Of a stretch of DNA of 11,936 bases, positions 676 through 5,658 are shown piece by piece. Numbering within the stretch: the first letter of the stretch is position 1; each line of letters starts with the position of its first letter. Position numbers and translations under genes: made by a program. The notes under the pieces were generated by a model. It was not told the DNA's origin. It saw only the letters and a program-made list of their open reading frames with translations, and searched no databases. This DNA comes from Planctomycetota bacterium (GTDB lineage: Bacteria > Planctomycetota > Planctomycetia > Pirellulales > Pirellulaceae): assembly GCA_023417165.1 (NCBI GenBank), contig JAEZGD010000584.1, positions 1 through 11,936 of the forward strand, read 5' to 3'.

Positions 676-1032
676 ATGCCAGCACCCGATGCCTTTGATC
701 CCGTCGCCGATGGGCGGACGTGGCCGCGATTCTTTGCCAGAGCAGCGATTCTGTCGCCGTTTGCGGCCATGCTGTTGATTGCGCTGGCGCGCCAAATAGA
801 ACGCCATCGCTCGCCCGGCATGGCGGTGATGATCGAGAATGTCTCGAATGGCGCAAGCGCGAGCATTGCCGTCTTGGGATTCGTGCTTGGCATCGCCGGC
901 ATGATCGGCGGTTGGCGACGGCGCTCTCGCGATACGATGATGATCGCGGGACTAGGGCTCTTCGTGAGTGGCGGCTATCTGGTACTGGCGATCTTCGCCA
1001 ACGTGCTCACCGCGATGATGCGCCAGGGCTAA
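676..1032 (+). CDS. Small integral membrane protein (about 118 aa, 3 predicted TM helices). The ORF-track start at 496 is probably too far upstream.
   Basis: The C-terminal 110 aa are hydrophobic, with helices such as AAILSPFAAMLLIALA, IAVLGFVLGIAGMIGGW and GLGLFVSGGYLVLAIFANVL. A start at 496 would sit only 17 nt from the divergent start of the 23..478 gene. The internal ATG at 676 is preceded by AAGG. The start is uncertain (alternatives 496 or 820). Confidence 0.4.
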   Translation: MPAPDAFDPVADGRTWPRFFARAAILSPFAAMLLIALARQIERHRSPGMAVMIENVSNGASASIAVLGFVLGIAGMIGGWRRRSRDTMMIAGLGLFVSGGYLVLAIFANVLTAMMRQG

Positions 1033-1070
1033 GCCGCGCAGGCTACTAGCGTGCTCAAGAAAAGAACACA

Positions 1071-1093
1071 GGACGGGCGCGCGGTGCCCGTCC
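1071..1093 (-). terminator. Rho-independent terminator for the His-rich gene, on the minus strand.
   Basis: GGACGGGC(gc)-GCG-(gu)GCCCGTCC hairpin with an 8-10 bp GC-rich stem, 24 nt downstream of the TAA at 1117..1119. On the minus strand it is followed immediately by UGUGUUCUUUUCUU (reverse complement of 1051..1070). Confidence 0.65.
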
Positions 1094-1116
1094 TGCGTCG
1101 ATCACTGGCACTGACG

Positions 1117-1368
1117 TTACCAGTTGCATCCGTAACCGCCGTAGCCGTAGTACGGATTGTAATACGGCTGGATGACAATCGGCTTGTGGTGATGGTGGTG
1201 GAAGTGACCGTGTTTGTGATGGTGGTGTTTGTGGTGATGATGATGGCCATGGTGATGGTGCTTGTGATGATGACCACCACCGTGAGCGCTCGCCACACTG
1301 ACGCCGCCCAACACCAAGATCGCCGCGACCACTGCCAAAGCCAAAACTCGGGATACCAAACGTTTCAT
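1117..1368 (-). CDS. Secreted or periplasmic histidine-rich small protein (83 aa): Sec signal peptide, 34-aa poly-His/Lys/Gly tract, Tyr/Gly-rich C-terminus ending GCNW. Putative metal-binding protein.
   Basis: ATG at 1368 is preceded by GAGGAGG with a 7-nt spacer. An alternative in-frame ATG lies at 1386. The N-terminus MKRLVSRVLALAVVAAILVLGGVSVASA-HGGG has a typical n-h-c region with an AxA cleavage site. The mature part is HGGGHHHKHHHHGHHHHHKHHHHKHGHFHHHHHKPIVIQPYYNPYYGYGGYGCNW (29 His). It lies on the same strand, 127 nt downstream of the MNIO-partner gene. Confidence 0.7.
   Translation of the reverse strand: MKRLVSRVLALAVVAAILVLGGVSVASAHGGGHHHKHHHHGHHHHHKHHHHKHGHFHHHHHKPIVIQPYYNPYYGYGGYGCNW
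1183..1284 (-). repeat. Imperfect CAC/CAT(/AAA/GGC) trinucleotide microsatellite encoding the His tract. Slippage-prone.
   Basis: The plus strand reads gtggtgatggtggtggaagtgaccgtgtttgtgatggtggtgtttgtggtgatgatgatggccatggtgatggtg. These are GTG/ATG triplet iterations in frame with the His codons. Confidence 0.5.
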
Positions 1369-1495
1369 GGAATGCCTCCTCGGCATGAAGTTACCGCCCT
1401 GGAAATCCGCTCGTCTTAGTGACGAGCTTCTTCCTGTCTAAGCGGCCTCCTGCGAGAAGCGTTACACGACGATCAGCGATTTAATTCGCAGCGTC

Positions 1496-2245
1496 TCATG
1501 CCACCGCGACCAATCCCATCGCCGCCAGATCGCGCACGATGTCGAGCAGATCGTCGTTCGGCGCGGCCTTAGATGTCGCCGCCCAGGACAAGTAGGTCAC
1601 GGGTCCTAGCGCCGCCAACTCGGCCAACAGCGCGCTGCCGCAATCGTCGAGCGCTGCGGTGCTGATCTCGCCTGCGACGGGAAAGAAAACGACGCGAGTT
1701 GTACGATCGACTTGCTCGCCTAACAGTTCGGCGGTGCCAATCGTCGTCCAGACACGAATCGGATTGAGATACAAGATCGCCACCCCGGCAGGCAACTGCT
1801 CGACGAGTGCTTGCGTCACGCTCCAACGCTCATGAAAGCGCATATAGTCGAGCCGATGCTCGCGCGCCAGCGCTTCGACCTGATGCCGGGCGCGCTGGCA
1901 AGCGATGTAGTCGAGCTGCCGCGACGACAAGCGGCGCATTTGCTCGAGCCAGGTCAGCATGCGATCACAATCGCTGACGCCGGTATCGTAGGCTGAGAGT
2001 GTTGTCTCGCGGACATAGGCTTCGACGAGATTGTCAAAGCGCCGGAACGCCGGAGCGAGGAACTCCAAGCCATTCATCAGCTTCTCGAAACGTTTGTCGA
2101 GATTGCCGTCGACAAACATTTTGACTGCCGCCGGCGTCGAATCTGGCGCCAAATCGACGGCAATAGCTTCACTATTTGCATGCGCCAGCGCACGAGTCAT
2201 GCGCAACAGGTGATCGCGATACGTCGACGGGGTTTGCACCACCAT
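1496..2245 (-). CDS. Putative MNIO partner protein (MbnC/DUF2063-like position and size, about 249 aa). The family assignment rests on gene context, not on recognised motifs.
   Basis: It lies immediately downstream of the DUF692 gene on the same strand. ATG at 2245 is preceded by GGGAGG with a 7-nt spacer. The longer ORF-track version starts at a TTG at 2320, 5 nt after the MNIO stop. Known MNIO systems (MbnBC, TglHI, BufBC, ChrHI) pair DUF692 with a 250-280 aa partner encoded directly downstream. Confidence 0.5.
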   Translation of the reverse strand: MVVQTPSTYRDHLLRMTRALAHANSEAIAVDLAPDSTPAAVKMFVDGNLDKRFEKLMNGLEFLAPAFRRFDNLVEAYVRETTLSAYDTGVSDCDRMLTWLEQMRRLSSRQLDYIACQRARHQVEALAREHRLDYMRFHERWSVTQALVEQLPAGVAILYLNPIRVWTTIGTAELLGEQVDRTTRVVFFPVAGEISTAALDDCGSALLAELAALGPVTYLSWAATSKAAPNDDLLDIVRDLAAMGLVAVA

Positions 2246-2325
2246 GAGCAAGCCTCCCAAGCGAGAATGTCGAATGTCGAAATCCCAATGTCGAAGCCAT
2301 TCAACACGGGGATTTCCCAATCCTC

Positions 2326-3162
2326 TTACACACGCACCACGGGCCGATACGTTTCCTCGGCGATCGCCCTGGCGAGCCGCGCTTCGGCGCGCCAGCCGCG
2401 CTCATCCGGAAAGTTTTGATCGCGTTCGATAAAGATGGCGTCCACCTTGCCGCGGCCTTGCTGCAAGCCGAAGCGGTACAGTTCCCACACCGCATCGGGA
2501 ATGGGATGCGAGTGACTATCGATATACATGCCAGCCGCTTCGTCGAACACACCGCCCGCCAGGTGCATTTGCACCCGATGCGCCGAAGGCATCACCTCGG
2601 CGATGAACTCGTACGGATCGAACTGAAAGTTTAGCGCGTTGGCATACACGTTGGTCACGTCCAATAGCCAGCCGCAGCCTGTGCGCGTCAGCAATCGCGA
2701 GACAAACTCCGCTTCGCTCATCTCGCCTTGCAGGCGAAACAAGTAAGCAATGGTTTCGATGTAAAACGTCAGCGGCTCGAAGTAGTTCTGAATCTGATTG
2801 ACGTTGCGGCACGTGGCATCTAAGGCCGCTTCGGTCCATGGCGGAGGCGCAAAGTGCCCCATTTCGACGCCATCACGAACGTCGCGCGTGAATCCCAGAT
2901 GATCGCTGATACTCGCCGCGCCGTTTTCGAGCGCGATCTCGCGCAGCGCGCTTAAGTATTCGAGGCCCGGCGCTTCCGGACTGCATGGCGACAGCTTCAG
3001 CGCATGCAGGCTGACATAGGGGAAGTCGGCATCGGCGAGATAGCGTTCGATGCGCAGCGGATCGTCTGCACGCTCGAACGTGATTTCGCAGGCGTCGATC
3101 GCTGGATCGTCCAAGTAGGGCCGATTCTGTTCGCGCAGCGCATAACCGATGTAAGGTAGCAT
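2326..3162 (-). CDS. DUF692 / UPF0276 family multinuclear non-heme iron oxidase (MNIO; MbnB/TglH/BufB-like), 278 aa.
   Basis: The sequence carries the family signature blocks: IGYALR near the N-terminus, SISDHLGF, WLLDVTNVYANALNFQFDPYEFIAEVMPSAHRVQMHLAGG and DSHSHPIPDAVWELY. These correspond to the conserved metal-ligand regions of DUF692 proteins (xylose-isomerase-like TIM barrel). The length is typical. Confidence 0.85.
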   Translation of the reverse strand: MLPYIGYALREQNRPYLDDPAIDACEITFERADDPLRIERYLADADFPYVSLHALKLSPCSPEAPGLEYLSALREIALENGAASISDHLGFTRDVRDGVEMGHFAPPPWTEAALDATCRNVNQIQNYFEPLTFYIETIAYLFRLQGEMSEAEFVSRLLTRTGCGWLLDVTNVYANALNFQFDPYEFIAEVMPSAHRVQMHLAGGVFDEAAGMYIDSHSHPIPDAVWELYRFGLQQGRGKVDAIFIERDQNFPDERGWRAEARLARAIAEETYRPVVRV

Positions 3163-3241
3163 GGCATCTCAAGGCAAGAGGGAAGGGCAAGTCCCAAGTG
3201 CTCGTTCCCTCGCAGCACTTGGACTTGTTCATGCGGCCGAC

Positions 3242-3370
3242 TTACCAGCACCGACAACAGCGACAGCAACGGCAACAACGGCCGCCGCGCCGCTCTTGCA
3301 CGCCTTGGCGCTGGGTTGTCTTGAGGTTGACAAGTTCCCGCACCGCCTTGGTTTTGGGCTTGGTCTTCAT
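3242..3370 (-). CDS. Candidate RiPP precursor peptide (42 aa), MKTKPKTKAVRELVNLKTTQRQGVQERRGGRCCRCCRCCRCW. Lys-rich leader plus poly-Cys/Arg core. Absent from the ORF track because it is below the 60-aa cut-off.
   Basis: Hand translation of the minus strand gives ATG at 3370..3368 preceded by GGAGGAG (3376..3382 on plus) with an 8-nt spacer, and a TAA stop at 3244..3242. It is on the same strand, 79 nt upstream of the DUF692 start. Seven Cys fall within the last 11 residues. This is the canonical position for an MNIO substrate gene. Confidence 0.6.
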   Translation of the reverse strand: MKTKPKTKAVRELVNLKTTQRQGVQERRGGRCCRCCRCCRCW

Positions 3371-3610
3371 CGTTCCGTCTCCTCCGTCGTGGAAAAGAAG
3401 CGTTGTCTTGGCCGATCGCCGGCGAGTGCTTTGTCTTGAGCCTCACTTCCGGCGATCGCGGTGACTGCTACCAGGGGCTTATCAAAACGCATCCCGCACC
3501 CAGCACGTGACGCGAGAAAGTAAAAGGACCGCCGAGGGGGAGTGTCGCACGGCCCGCGTGACACCAACACTTCTCCTTAAAGCAGTCGCCGTGCCAAAGC
3601 GATCACTGCG

Positions 3611-3678
3611 AACGCAACTTGCGTTATGAAAGCGACTTAAGTCGCAATCGGGTAGTTTGATAGCGATGCTGGCATCGC
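3611..3678. promoter_or_regulatory. Cluster of three short perfect palindromes between the RecQ stop and the precursor gene: AACGCAA-c-TTGCGTT (3611..3625), GCGACTTAAGTCGC (3632..3645), GCGATGC-tg-GCATCGC (3663..3678). Candidate operator sites or stem-loops.
   Basis: The dyad symmetry is seen directly. The sites lie 240-310 nt upstream of the precursor ATG and 60-130 nt downstream of the RecQ stop on the same transcribed strand. No U-tract follows them. Confidence 0.3.
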
Positions 3679-3741
3679 CACTGCGCCATCAAAATGAATA
3701 CGCCTTCAACTCAAATCGATGGCGCACAAGCCTGTTTAGAA

Positions 3742-5654
<1,913 letters not shown>

Positions 5655-5658
<4 letters not shown>

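What the first reader, a model, noticed from the sequence alone, without database searches (positions are those of the whole stretch)
1117..1368. Extreme poly-His secreted protein (29 His in 34 residues) with YG-rich tail ending C-N-W, linked to the MNIO operon
The sequence is signal peptide, then HGGGHHHKHHHHGHHHHHKHHHHKHGHFHHHHHK, then PIVIQPYYNPYYGYGGYGCNW. It resembles cytoplasmic Ni/Zn storage proteins such as Hpn in composition, but it is exported. Its single Cys sits two residues from a C-terminal Trp, echoing the ...RCW terminus of the upstream precursor. That may be coincidental, or it could mark a second MNIO substrate (bufferin precursors also carry Sec signal peptides). Between it and the partner gene there is only a weak 7-bp hairpin at 1409..1427 with no U-tract, so co-transcription is plausible.
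Basis: partly seen in the sequence, partly recalled or inferred. Interest (0 to 1): 0.7.

Follow-up and report, generated by a model that had tools for sequence, protein, structure and literature searches.

The report
Exported poly-histidine protein beside MNIO operon
A real, very small exported protein that is 44% histidine after signal-peptide removal sits at the tail of a peptide-modifying (MNIO) operon in a planctomycete. It is a recent, lineage-specific add-on, most likely a periplasmic metal sponge, and probably not a second substrate of the enzyme.

Summary
The ORF is real and lies on the minus strand at 1117-1368. It encodes a Sec-type signal peptide, then a 34-residue block with 24 His (not 29), then a Tyr/Gly/Pro tail ending G-C-N-W. 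It has a good Shine-Dalgarno site, a strong terminator 17 nt after the stop, in-frame indels only, and dN/dS of 0.31-0.41 among three close homologues. AlphaFold2 predicts disorder after the signal peptide.

It follows a precursor (…RCCRCCRCCRCW), an MNIO enzyme and a TglI/NGO1945-like partner. That three-gene operon is widespread in Planctomycetota. I read 23 other lineages with DNA downstream of the operon, including ones with MNIO 84-87% identical. None has the poly-His gene; 13 of the 21 genome loci have an ABC_membrane_3 gene after the partner instead. The only remote homologue (P0004, …GGGCHAW) is not preceded by an MNIO partner gene.

The protein lacks the invariant VRE[LIV] leader of the true precursors. 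The partner is of the type that the literature links to precursors without signal peptides.

Best reading: an orphan, exported, disordered His-rich metal-binding or buffering protein. Its link to the MNIO operon is positional, with possible co-transcription. The reading as a second MNIO substrate is unlikely (about 0.08). No function was tested.

The parts
1117..1368 (-). Coding sequence of the 83-aa poly-His exported protein, stop codon 1117-1119 included
   Evidence: ORF list and translation. The gene was called on 3 metagenome contigs. Homologues occur in L004, L034 and L026. dN/dS is 0.31-0.41.
1285..1368 (-). Sec-type signal peptide (aa 1-28, MKRLVSRVLALAVVAAILVLGGVSVASA), predicted cleavage after A-S-A
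   Evidence: Read directly from the sequence. The h-region has mean hydropathy 2.8. AF2 predicts a helix at residues 2-21. ASA|HGGGH is invariant in all 4 homologues. There is no lipobox Cys and no twin-arginine consensus.
1183..1284 (-). His block (aa 29-62): 24 His, 4 Lys, 5 Gly, 1 Phe, no acidic residue. It begins with His at the predicted mature N-terminus.
   Evidence: Predicted disordered, pLDDT about 50. Its length varies by in-frame indels among homologues.
1120..1182 (-). Tyr/Gly/Pro-rich tail PIVIQPYYNPYYGYGGYGCNW. KPIVIQP and G-C-N-W are invariant in the three close homologues. The single Cys lies 2 residues from the C-terminal Trp.
   Evidence: Tail similarity to P0004 (…SYGGFYGGGCHAW) was reached by only 5 of 2000 composition-preserving shuffles.
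1375..1380 (-). Shine-Dalgarno AGGAGG, 6 nt upstream of the ATG at 1368
   Evidence: Invariant in L004 and L034.
1369..1498 (-). Leader between the partner stop and the poly-His ATG. It forms a long imperfect hairpin whose tip is the 7-bp stem at 1409-1427 and in which CUUCUCGCA (1451-1459) pairs with the SD region.
   Evidence: MFE -49.1 kcal/mol, z -2.95. Conserved in L004 and L034 with 96% of cells paired but no compensatory changes. No Rfam match. The regulatory role is an inference only.
1065..1099 (-). Intrinsic terminator (14-bp stem, 9 GC pairs, then CTTTTCTT), 17 nt after the poly-His stop. This is the 3' end of the transcription unit.
   Evidence: Identical in L004 except for one base outside the stem core.
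1496..2245 (-). MNIO partner protein (249 aa from the ATG at 2245; an alternative TTG start at 2320 gives 274 aa). It has a helical N-domain plus an RRE-like C-domain.
   Evidence: No Pfam or NCBIfam hit. AF2 pLDDT is 91. The best PDB fold matches are TglI 8hi7_A (E 7.5e-4) and NGO1945 3dee. It follows the MNIO gene in 19 of 21 genome loci.
2326..3162 (-). MNIO enzyme (278 aa)
   Evidence: PF05114 MbnB_TglH_ChrH, E 6e-51. It scores below the cut-off of every NCBIfam equivalog: BufB 142/310, HvfB 125/360, ApyH 62/400, ChrH 39/600, MbnB 24/325.
3242..3370 (-). Genuine precursor peptide (42 aa, no signal peptide): Lys-rich leader with AVREL and core RCCRCCRCCRCW
   Evidence: Family alignment of 18 lineages with invariant VRE[LIV].

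Best explanation
The gene encodes a small orphan protein. The Sec pathway exports it, and signal peptidase I is predicted to cleave it after A-S-A. The product is a ~6.7 kDa, basic (pI about 9.5), intrinsically disordered polypeptide in the periplasm or envelope.

Its N-terminal 34 residues hold 24 His and start with a free N-terminal His. This block would act as a high-capacity, low-specificity ligand field for divalent transition metals (Zn, Ni, Cu, Co). That makes the protein a periplasmic metal buffer, sponge or chaperone. The conserved KPIVIQP…GCNW tail may provide a thiolate ligand, a disulfide dimerisation point or a docking site.

The gene is a recent, lineage-specific insertion at the 3' end of a Planctomycetota MNIO RiPP operon (precursor (CCR)n, MNIO, TglI-like partner). 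It sits where relatives carry an ABC_membrane_3 or ECF-sigma gene. It is probably transcribed by read-through from that operon, and it is translated from its own SD, which a leader hairpin can mask. It is not a conserved component of the MNIO system and is probably not its substrate.

Shown here: gene reality, export signals, composition, predicted disorder, operon anatomy, phylogenetic distribution.
Inferred: metal binding, compartment, co-transcription, SD masking.
For: - Real, constrained gene.
- Signal peptide, SD and terminator.
- Composition: 24 of 34 His, no acidic residues, one Cys.
- Predicted disorder.
- Curated models: only weak, composition-type matches, all to metal-handling His-rich regions (ZrgA, ZnuA loop, RcnA-type and DmeF loops, HypB prefix, CopL), and all below cut-off.
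- Motif-level analogy to the zinc-binding periplasmic ZraP, which reads AFA|HGGHG… …GYGGCGGGGHMGMGHW*. ZraP is described as lowering free periplasmic Zn (PMC9175090).
- Lineage-specific presence: 3 close lineages have the gene and 23 lack it.
- A homologue lies outside any visible MNIO context.
- Similar small proteins with the layout signal peptide, His-rich block, Tyr/Pro-rich tail occur elsewhere. None of them is next to an MNIO gene.
Against: - No metal-binding, localisation or expression data exist. Everything functional is inferred from composition.
- dN/dS of 0.3-0.4 is 3-20 times higher than for neighbouring genes, so constraint is weak.
- The family is tiny: 4 members found.
- The protein searches under-sample the family. 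The window's own protein is absent from the 15-billion-protein collection.
- P0004's contig is only 1.9 kb, so an MNIO gene further away cannot be excluded.
- The conserved tail and its single Cys have no explained role.
- MNIO products are often metallophores, so a functional rather than merely positional link remains possible.
Confidence: 0.5

Rival explanations
1. Second MNIO substrate. The MNIO-partner pair modifies the C-terminal Cys of …GYGCNW in the cytoplasm before Sec export (for example to a thiooxazole, an oxazolone-thioamide or a carbon-excised product), as happens with bufferins or ChrA/MelA1-type proteins.
For: - The gene is adjacent to and on the same strand as the MNIO and partner genes, with no terminator between them.
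- A Cys lies close to a C-terminal aromatic residue, as in the …RCW precursor.
- The literature has precedents. Most MNIO precursors carry Sec signal peptides (PMC12452194). ChrH-type enzymes modify C-terminal Cys motifs of signal-peptide proteins of >30 kDa (PMC13056109).
- The partner's best structural match is TglI, whose enzyme acts on a C-terminal Cys.
Against: - The gene is not co-conserved. 23 related lineages, including ones with MNIO 84-87% identical and identical RCCRCCRCCRCW cores, lack it.
- The remote homologue with the same C-x-x-W end is preceded by an unrelated gene.
- There is no VRE[LIV] leader. An HMM of 18 genuine precursors gives negative scores.
- It lies after the partner, not before the MNIO gene.
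- The partner lacks the DUF2063 signature. PMC12452194 (section 19) ties Sec-signal precursors to DUF2063 (PME-type 1) partners.
- The MNIO is not ChrH-like (39 bits against a cut-off of 600).
- There is no hit to any curated bufferin or precursor model.
Confidence: 0.08
2. Dedicated accessory of the RiPP. The exported poly-His protein works with the mature Cys-rich (CCR)n product. It could be a periplasmic metal donor or acceptor, a carrier or receptor, or a self-protection factor. In this lineage it functionally replaces the lost ABC_membrane_3 or other third gene.
For: - It occupies the third-gene slot of the operon and shares its terminator.
- The arrangement is kept in three lineages whose synonymous divergence is 0.2-0.6.
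- MNIO RiPPs are predominantly linked to copper or metal stress (PMC12452194, PMC11626156 abstracts).
- Related operons have neighbours with metal or redox annotations: hemP, DUF4198 and thioredoxin-like genes.
Against: - The three lineages are very close (MNIO >=98% identical), so shared synteny may simply be shared ancestry.
- No other lineage of the system has any His-rich gene within about 5 kb.
- The homologue P0004 lies in an unrelated context.
- No ABC_membrane_3 gene is found on the 22-kb contig. The exporter is therefore missing, not replaced by an equivalent activity.
Confidence: 0.15
3. A role other than metal homeostasis. The protein could be a cationic His/Tyr/Gly-rich secreted peptide that acts as an antimicrobial or competitor peptide (histatin- or shepherin-like). 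Alternatively it could be a self-assembling or coacervating envelope or adhesive material.
For: - The mature peptide is short (55 aa), basic, free of acidic residues and disordered, with His-rich and GYGGYG-type segments.
- It belongs to a loose set of small proteins with the layout signal peptide, His-rich block, Tyr/Pro-rich tail, found in varied genomic contexts.
- From my own knowledge, not tested here: histatins and the plant shepherins are Gly/His-rich antimicrobial peptides, and His/Gly/Tyr-rich proteins form metal-hardened biomaterials.
Against: - No immunity, export or processing genes are nearby.
- A plain Sec signal would deliver the protein only to the periplasm of a diderm.
- There is no sequence relationship to any such family.
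- The reading is purely compositional.
Confidence: 0.12
4. Not a functional gene: a chance ORF through a (CAC/CAT)n simple-sequence tract, or a decaying young gene.
For: - The sequence is low-complexity.
- The antisense strand is also open.
- Constraint is relaxed (omega 0.3-0.4).
- Taxonomic spread is tiny.
Against: - The signal peptide, SD, start, stop and terminator are all conserved.
- All indels are in frame.
- Synonymous excess is significant in the sense frame but is not consistent across the three comparisons in the codon-aligned antisense frame.
- A homologue with 41% identity has the same ordered architecture and beats region-wise shuffles 0 of 2000.
Confidence: 0.03

Closest known systems
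Hpn / Hpn-like histidine-rich nickel-storage proteins of Helicobacter pylori
   Same: A very small protein in which roughly 40-50% of residues are His, arranged in runs broken by Gly, Lys or Gln. The presumed function is multi-ion binding of Ni, Zn or Cu. (The Hpn properties come from my own knowledge.)
   Different: Hpn is cytoplasmic and has no signal peptide. This protein has a conserved Sec signal peptide, a Tyr/Gly/Pro tail and a C-terminal G-C-N-W. No sequence homology was detected to any curated family.
ZraP (CpxP/Spy family), zinc-binding periplasmic chaperone of E. coli
   Same: ZraP has a Sec signal peptide and a mature N-terminus HGGHG (here HGGGH). Its Gly-rich C-terminal tail has a single Cys and a terminal Trp: GYGGCGGGGHMGMGHW* against GYGGYGCNW*. 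It is described as binding Zn through two sites and lowering free periplasmic Zn (PMC9175090).
   Different: ZraP has a central helical LTxxQ/CpxP-like domain that is absent here. There is no BLASTP alignment at all and no Pfam hit. ZraP has no poly-His run. The resemblance is at motif level only.
Sec-signal MNIO substrates (bufferins BufA1/BufA2, oxazolins, ChrA/MelA1)
   Same: These are exported proteins encoded in an MNIO gene cluster, and their Cys residues are the modification sites. C-terminal Cys motifs are modified in ChrA-type proteins (PMC13056109).
   Different: The protein matches no precursor model. It has one Cys only. It is encoded after the partner gene rather than before the MNIO gene. 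The partner is not of the DUF2063 type. The MNIO is not a BufB or ChrH equivalog. The gene is not co-conserved with the enzyme.
VPA0510 family (NCBIfam NF052668), the best-scoring curated model
   Same: Small proteins whose profile aligns to the signal peptide plus the His-rich stretch (profile positions 3-64 of 110).
   Different: The score is 32.7 bits against a cut-off of 95 (22-31 bits for the homologues, none for P0004). The match is driven by the signal peptide and composition. No literature on the family was found.
His-rich loops of periplasmic zinc proteins (ZrgA PF10986, PA4063/DUF2796, ZnuA)
   Same: His-rich, flexible, periplasmic metal-capturing segments. They give weak hits.
   Different: Those segments are loops within folded domains. 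Here the His block is essentially the whole protein. All scores are below the cut-offs.

Membership tests
MNIO RiPP precursors with Sec signal peptide (bufferin-type) | N-terminal Sec signal peptide | tested here: met
   The n/h/c regions and A-x-A motif are conserved in 4 homologues. AF2 predicts a helix at residues 2-21. No dedicated predictor was available.
MNIO RiPP precursors with Sec signal peptide (bufferin-type) | Match to a curated precursor model (DUF2282/BufA and related) | tested here: not met
   No such hit in Pfam or NCBIfam at E <= 0.1.
MNIO RiPP precursors with Sec signal peptide (bufferin-type) | Partner protein with the DUF2063 signature (PME-type 1), as reported for Sec-signal precursors (PMC12452194, section 19) | tested here: not met
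   None of 17 partner homologues hits DUF2063. The fold matches TglI and NGO1945, which corresponds to PME-type 2.
MNIO RiPP precursors with Sec signal peptide (bufferin-type) | Co-occurrence with the MNIO gene across lineages | tested here: not met
   Present in 3 closely related lineages only. Absent from 23 lineages of the same MNIO subfamily with readable downstream DNA. The P0004 homologue has no partner gene upstream.
MNIO RiPP precursors with Sec signal peptide (bufferin-type) | Cys actually modified by the enzyme | not testable with these tools
   Needs co-expression and mass spectrometry.
(CCR)n precursor family of this operon | Leader with invariant VRE[LIV] motif and a C-terminal CC-R repeat core | tested here: not met
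   An HMM of 18 precursors scores -2.1 to -2.4 bits on the poly-His proteins (no score was reported for P0004). The protein has no CC pair.
ZraP / CpxP / Spy periplasmic chaperones | Central LTxxQ helical domain detectable by sequence | tested here: not met
   No Pfam hit. The Spy model gives E 0.018, 15 bits against a cut-off of 174. There is no BLASTP alignment to E. coli ZraP. AF2 predicts no helices after the signal peptide.
ZraP / CpxP / Spy periplasmic chaperones | His/Gly-rich N-terminus after the signal peptide, and a Gly-rich C-terminal tail with a single Cys and a terminal Trp | tested here: met
   Direct comparison with the ZraP sequence read from NC_000913. This is a motif resemblance only.
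VPA0510 family (NF052668) | Whole-protein score of at least 95 bits | tested here: not met
   32.7 bits. Homologues score 21.8 and 31.4 bits, and P0004 scores nothing.
ZrgA family (PF10986) | Score of at least 27.4 bits | tested here: not met
   14.6 bits, over the His-rich stretch only.
Hpn-type His-rich metal-storage proteins | Extreme His content in a very small protein | tested here: met
   24 of the 55 mature residues are His.
Hpn-type His-rich metal-storage proteins | Cytoplasmic location (no signal peptide) and demonstrated multi-ion Ni binding | tested here: not met
   A signal peptide is present. Metal binding cannot be tested with these tools.

The most novel reading that the evidence does not exclude
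The poly-His protein is a newly recruited working partner of a so far uncharacterised Planctomycetota (CCR)n MNIO peptide. One version is an imidazole-rich periplasmic protein that hands metal to, or takes it from, a thiol- or heterocycle-rich RiPP. The other version is an exported protein whose C-terminal Cys is itself modified by a TglHI-like enzyme pair. Either version would be an instance of an MNIO system caught in the act of acquiring a new client or accessory.
Probability: 0.15. Interest if true: 0.6.

Novelty: new variant of a known kind. Interest (0 to 1): 0.35.

Why it matters
If the main reading holds, this is an exported, almost pure poly-His counterpart of the cytoplasmic Hpn-type metal-storage proteins, found in Planctomycetota. 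It would be a compact natural model for disordered periplasmic metal buffering. It would also illustrate how low-complexity genes are born and attached to existing operons.

The case also has a practical lesson. Adjacency to an MNIO gene plus a stray Cys is not enough to call a RiPP precursor. Leader motif, partner type and co-conservation decide.

The more valuable by-product is the operon itself. It is a conserved, apparently undescribed Planctomycetota MNIO system with (CCR)n precursors, a TglI-like partner and often an ABC_membrane_3 gene.

Tried and rejected
- Two metagenome-contig scans with the poly-His alignment and with P0004 found nothing.
- PDB sequence search returned only engineered His-tags and His-rich loops.
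- Rfam search of 1000-3800 found no riboswitch or known RNA in the leader.
- The covariation test of the leader hairpin had no power: 3 close sequences and 0 compensatory pairs.
- A sequence-profile search of the partner against PDB and Pfam found nothing. Only the fold search identified it.
- Literature searches for VPA0510, for the CCRCC motif and for the sample accessions gave nothing usable.
- I looked for an ABC_membrane_3 remnant in the window and in the 22-kb contig L001 and found none.
- I considered a his-operon-type attenuator leader peptide and rejected it. The ORF has a signal peptide and a conserved non-His tail. It is followed by a terminator and then a convergent gene, so there is nothing downstream to regulate.
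- I considered a Tat signal from the in-frame upstream ATG at 1386 (MPRRHS…). The RR codons coincide with the SD AGGAGG, there is no Tat consensus, and gene callers use the ATG at 1368.
- I considered the + strand ORF 1051-1419 as the real gene and rejected it. It spans the terminator, and its dN/dS is up to 1.16.
- I tested whether His-codon (CAC/CAT) order is unusually conserved. About 1 synonymous change was observed where about 2 were expected, which is not significant.
Full report
**Observation**

The feature is a minus-strand ORF at 1117-1368.
- signal peptide MKRLVSRVLALAVVAAILVLGGVSVASA,
- then HGGGHHHKHHHHGHHHHHKHHHHKHGHFHHHHHK,
- then PIVIQPYYNPYYGYGGYGCNW and a stop.

The His count was wrong. 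The 34-residue block has 24 His, 4 Lys, 5 Gly and 1 Phe. That is still far beyond chance: P is about 8e-31 at the 2.6% His frequency of seven long ORFs in this window. The mature protein would be 55 aa and 6.7 kDa, with pI about 9.5, no Asp or Glu, one Cys and one Trp.

**Is it a gene?**

Several lines of evidence say yes.
- AGGAGG lies 6 nt before the ATG (1375-1380).
- A 14-bp GC-rich hairpin followed by a T-run at 1099-1065 starts 17 nt after the stop.
- The exact protein is called on three metagenome contigs (L001-L003).
- Two further close homologues exist. P0001 is in L004 (71% identity by BLASTP, 83% in the MAFFT alignment). An 88-aa protein is in L034 (81% identity).
- All length differences among the three are in-frame indels within the His block and the Tyr-rich tail.
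- Sense-frame dN/dS is 0.31-0.41 with a significant excess of synonymous changes (P = 0.007-0.03). The codon-aligned antisense ORF (1051-1419, + strand) gives 0.39-1.16.

Constraint is nevertheless much weaker than on the neighbouring genes, whose dN/dS is 0.02-0.10.

**Export and structure**

The N-terminus has the three regions of a Sec/SPase I signal:
- K2, R3 and R7 in the n-region,
- an 18-residue hydrophobic core with mean hydropathy 2.8,
- A-S-A at positions -3 and -1.

There is no lipobox Cys and no twin-arginine consensus. ASA|HGGGH is invariant in all four family members, including the remote one.

AlphaFold2 was run on a three-sequence alignment. It predicts only the signal-peptide helix (residues 2-21), and everything after it has pLDDT of about 50. 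This is consistent with an intrinsically disordered mature protein. I had no dedicated signal-peptide predictor, so export is inferred from these features.

**Surroundings**

Upstream on the same strand lie three genes.
- A 42-aa precursor without a signal peptide (3242-3370, MKTKPKTKAVRELVNLKTTQRQGVQERRGGRCCRCCRCCRCW).
- An MNIO enzyme (2326-3162). It hits PF05114 at E 6e-51 but scores below the cut-off of every NCBIfam equivalog.
- A 249-aa partner (1496-2245) with no Pfam or NCBIfam hit.

I modelled the partner from 52 homologues (pLDDT 91). Its best PDB fold matches are TglI (8hi7_A, E 7.5e-4) and NGO1945 (3dee), with an RRE protein (TbiB1) further down the list. Antoine et al. use exactly these two reference structures to define MNIO partner proteins. 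Proteins with this fold but without the DUF2063 signature are their 'PME-type 2' (PMC12452194, section 18).

Between the partner stop and the poly-His ATG there are 127 nt. This gap has no terminator on the coding strand.
- MFE -49.1 kcal/mol, z = -2.95.
- CUUCUCGCA (1451-1459) pairs with the SD region.
- The structure is conserved in L004 and L034 but has no compensatory changes.
- It has no Rfam match.

Co-transcription with the MNIO operon is therefore plausible but unproven. Translation may be separately gated.

**Is it part of the MNIO system?**

I fetched 21 Planctomycetota genome loci whose MNIO is 63-81% identical. Through partner homologues I fetched seven more metagenome loci: L034-L039, L041 and L042.

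The core of precursor, MNIO and partner is conserved.
- 19 of the 21 genome loci have the partner.
- 18 lineages have a clear precursor, with an invariant VRE[LIV] leader motif and a (CCR)n core that usually ends in an aromatic residue.

The poly-His gene is found only in the window's own tight clade (MNIO >=98% and partner >=90% identical; window/L001-3, L004, L034). It is absent in the other loci.
- No ORF with 8 or more His in 20 residues occurs in any of the 21 genome loci, apart from one evidently spurious antisense ORF in L019.
- At a threshold of 7 in 20, none occurs in L035-L039. These include lineages whose MNIO is 84-87% identical and whose precursor core is the same RCCRCCRCCRCW.
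- L041 and L042 have other called genes downstream of the partner.

After setting aside three loci whose contig ends just after the operon (L006, L009, L016), the count is 23 lineages without the gene against 3 with it.

In the third-gene position:
- 13 of the 21 genome loci carry an ABC_membrane_3 protein (PF13748).
- The closest metagenome relatives carry an ECF sigma factor.
- No ABC_membrane_3 gene is present on the 22-kb contig L001.

Synteny with other lineages breaks exactly after the partner gene. The poly-His gene therefore sits at a rearrangement boundary.

**The family**

A word-indexed search of 5.8 billion proteins found only P0001.

A full HMMER scan of 1.84 billion representatives added ten weak hits. 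One of them has the same ordered architecture. P0004 (85 aa) reads …GIASA|HGGGHGGHGHHGHHGHYHSHYYPSYRPVRVYYSQPYIYNSYYTPSYGGFYGGGCHAW. Its similarity to the window protein beats shuffles that preserve composition within each region:
- 0 of 2000 shuffles reached the observed score for the whole protein,
- 5 of 2000 for the tail alone.

Its 1.9-kb contig shows an unrelated gene fragment upstream. That fragment has no Pfam hit and no similarity to the partner. A spermidine-synthase-like gene lies downstream.

Other hits are small proteins that share the layout signal peptide, His-rich block, Tyr/Pro-rich tail, but not the termini (for example P0012, P0014, P0017). None of them is near an MNIO gene.

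One caveat applies. The window's own protein and the L034 protein are not in the 15-billion-protein collection. Protein-level searches therefore under-sample this family. The DNA-level reading of MNIO loci does not depend on them.

**Second-substrate hypothesis**

Points in favour:
- The gene is adjacent to the MNIO and partner genes.
- A Cys lies two residues from a terminal Trp.
- The literature has precedents for Sec-signal MNIO substrates and for C-terminal Cys motifs modified on large exported proteins (PMC12452194; PMC13056109).

Points against:
- (i) The gene is not co-conserved with the enzyme.
- (ii) The C-x(1,2)-W end is a trait of the poly-His family itself. It is also present in P0004, which has no partner gene upstream.
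- (iii) The protein lacks the VRE[LIV] leader. A precursor HMM gives negative scores.
- (iv) The gene follows the partner instead of preceding the MNIO gene.
- (v) The partner is of PME-type 2, whereas Sec-signal precursors are reported to go with DUF2063 (PME-type 1) partners (PMC12452194, section 19).
- (vi) The MNIO is not ChrH-like (39 bits against a cut-off of 600).

I put this reading at about 0.08.

**Most likely function**

Composition is the only functional evidence. The mature chain has 24 imidazoles in 34 residues and no competing carboxylates. It starts with a free N-terminal His and ends in a tail with one thiol.

Every weak hit in curated libraries is to a His-rich metal-handling segment: ZrgA, ZnuA, RcnA-type, DmeF, HypB prefix and CopL. 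All are below cut-off.

The nearest analogy I could verify is E. coli ZraP, read from NC_000913. ZraP reads signal peptide…AFA|HGGHG… and ends …GYGGCGGGGHMGMGHW*. It is a periplasmic Zn-binding protein said to lower free periplasmic Zn (PMC9175090). However, ZraP has a central helical domain that is missing here, and BLASTP finds no alignment.

I therefore commit to the following reading, with confidence about 0.5. The protein is an exported, disordered, high-capacity metal-binding buffer or chaperone. It was acquired recently and is probably transcribed with the MNIO operon.

A specific functional partnership with the Cys-rich RiPP remains possible (about 0.15). Non-metal roles (antimicrobial or material-like) are at about 0.12. 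A non-functional ORF is at about 0.03.

**Novelty and value**

His-rich metal-binding proteins are a known kind. An exported, nearly pure poly-His protein with a conserved YG…GCNW tail belongs to no described family, so I rate it a new variant of a known kind.

It is a curiosity with modest constraint and very narrow distribution. The link that made it look exciting does not hold up. Interest is 0.35.

The (CCR)n/VRE-leader MNIO system of Planctomycetota, which I did not find described in the MNIO landscape paper, may deserve more attention than the poly-His gene.

Noticed in passing
window 1496-3370 (minus strand); L004-L025, L034-L042: A conserved Planctomycetota MNIO system. Its precursors are 37-45 aa, have no signal peptide, carry an invariant VRE[LIV] leader motif and have a C-terminal (CCR)n core that usually ends in W, F or Y. 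It also includes an MNIO enzyme and a TglI/NGO1945-like partner without the DUF2063 signature. 13 of the 21 genome loci have an ABC_membrane_3 (PF13748) gene. I did not find it in the MNIO landscape paper: no 'Planctomyc' mention, and the CC-repeat family is not listed.
   Followed up: partly
window 1369-1498 (minus strand): The structured leader of the poly-His gene (MFE -49.1 kcal/mol, z -2.95) pairs an upstream CUUCUCGCA with the Shine-Dalgarno region. It is conserved in L004 and L034 but has no covariation support and no Rfam match. It may gate translation.
   Followed up: partly
L022:4618-4824: A divergent relative of the operon (MNIO 63% identical) has a precursor with the same SVREI leader but a different core made of (LERCGR) repeats instead of (CCR)n.
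   Followed up: no
L035, L036, L037, L041 (downstream of partner); L037:2492-2683, L041:331-582; L037:1684-2391: In the closest poly-His-less relatives, the operon is followed by an ECF sigma factor and a large protein (alpha-2-macroglobulin-like in L037). In L037 and L041 it is preceded by hemP, and in L037 also by a DUF4198 gene. DUF4198 is the family of the gonococcal zinc-capture protein Zcp (PMC12663993 abstract). This hints at a metal-related context for the MNIO system.
   Followed up: no
L034:2058-2324: In the third homologue the tail motif GYGGYG is replaced by GHGGHG (…SHFGHGGHGCNW). This is a Tyr-to-His exchange by single-base TAC-to-CAC changes, while G-C-N-W stays invariant.
   Followed up: partly
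window 1117-1368; L034:2058-2321: The exact poly-His proteins of the window and of L034 are absent from the 15-billion-protein collection, although their genes are indexed by position. Small low-complexity proteins like this one are therefore under-represented in the protein searches.
   Followed up: yes
window 1369-1386 (minus strand): A second in-frame ATG lies 18 nt upstream (MPRRHS-MKRL…) and is conserved in L004 and L034. Its RR codons are the SD AGGAGG itself. Gene callers use the ATG at 1368, and either start gives a signal peptide.
   Followed up: partly
window 1051-1419 (+ strand): A 122-aa antisense ORF (…VVMVVEVTVFVMVVFVVMMMAMVMVLVMM…) is open only because His codons read as Val or Met on the other strand. 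It runs through the terminator and shows no consistent constraint.
   Followed up: yes
window 3492-3517 (minus strand): A terminator-like hairpin lies between the RecQ-family helicase gene (3742-5658) and the precursor gene. It suggests that the MNIO operon has its own promoter in roughly 3371-3491.
   Followed up: no
L025:6775-8031; L038:987-2054: Thioredoxin/AhpC-TSA-like genes lie next to the MNIO operon in two lineages. The L025 protein starts with a signal-peptide-like hydrophobic N-terminus.
   Followed up: no
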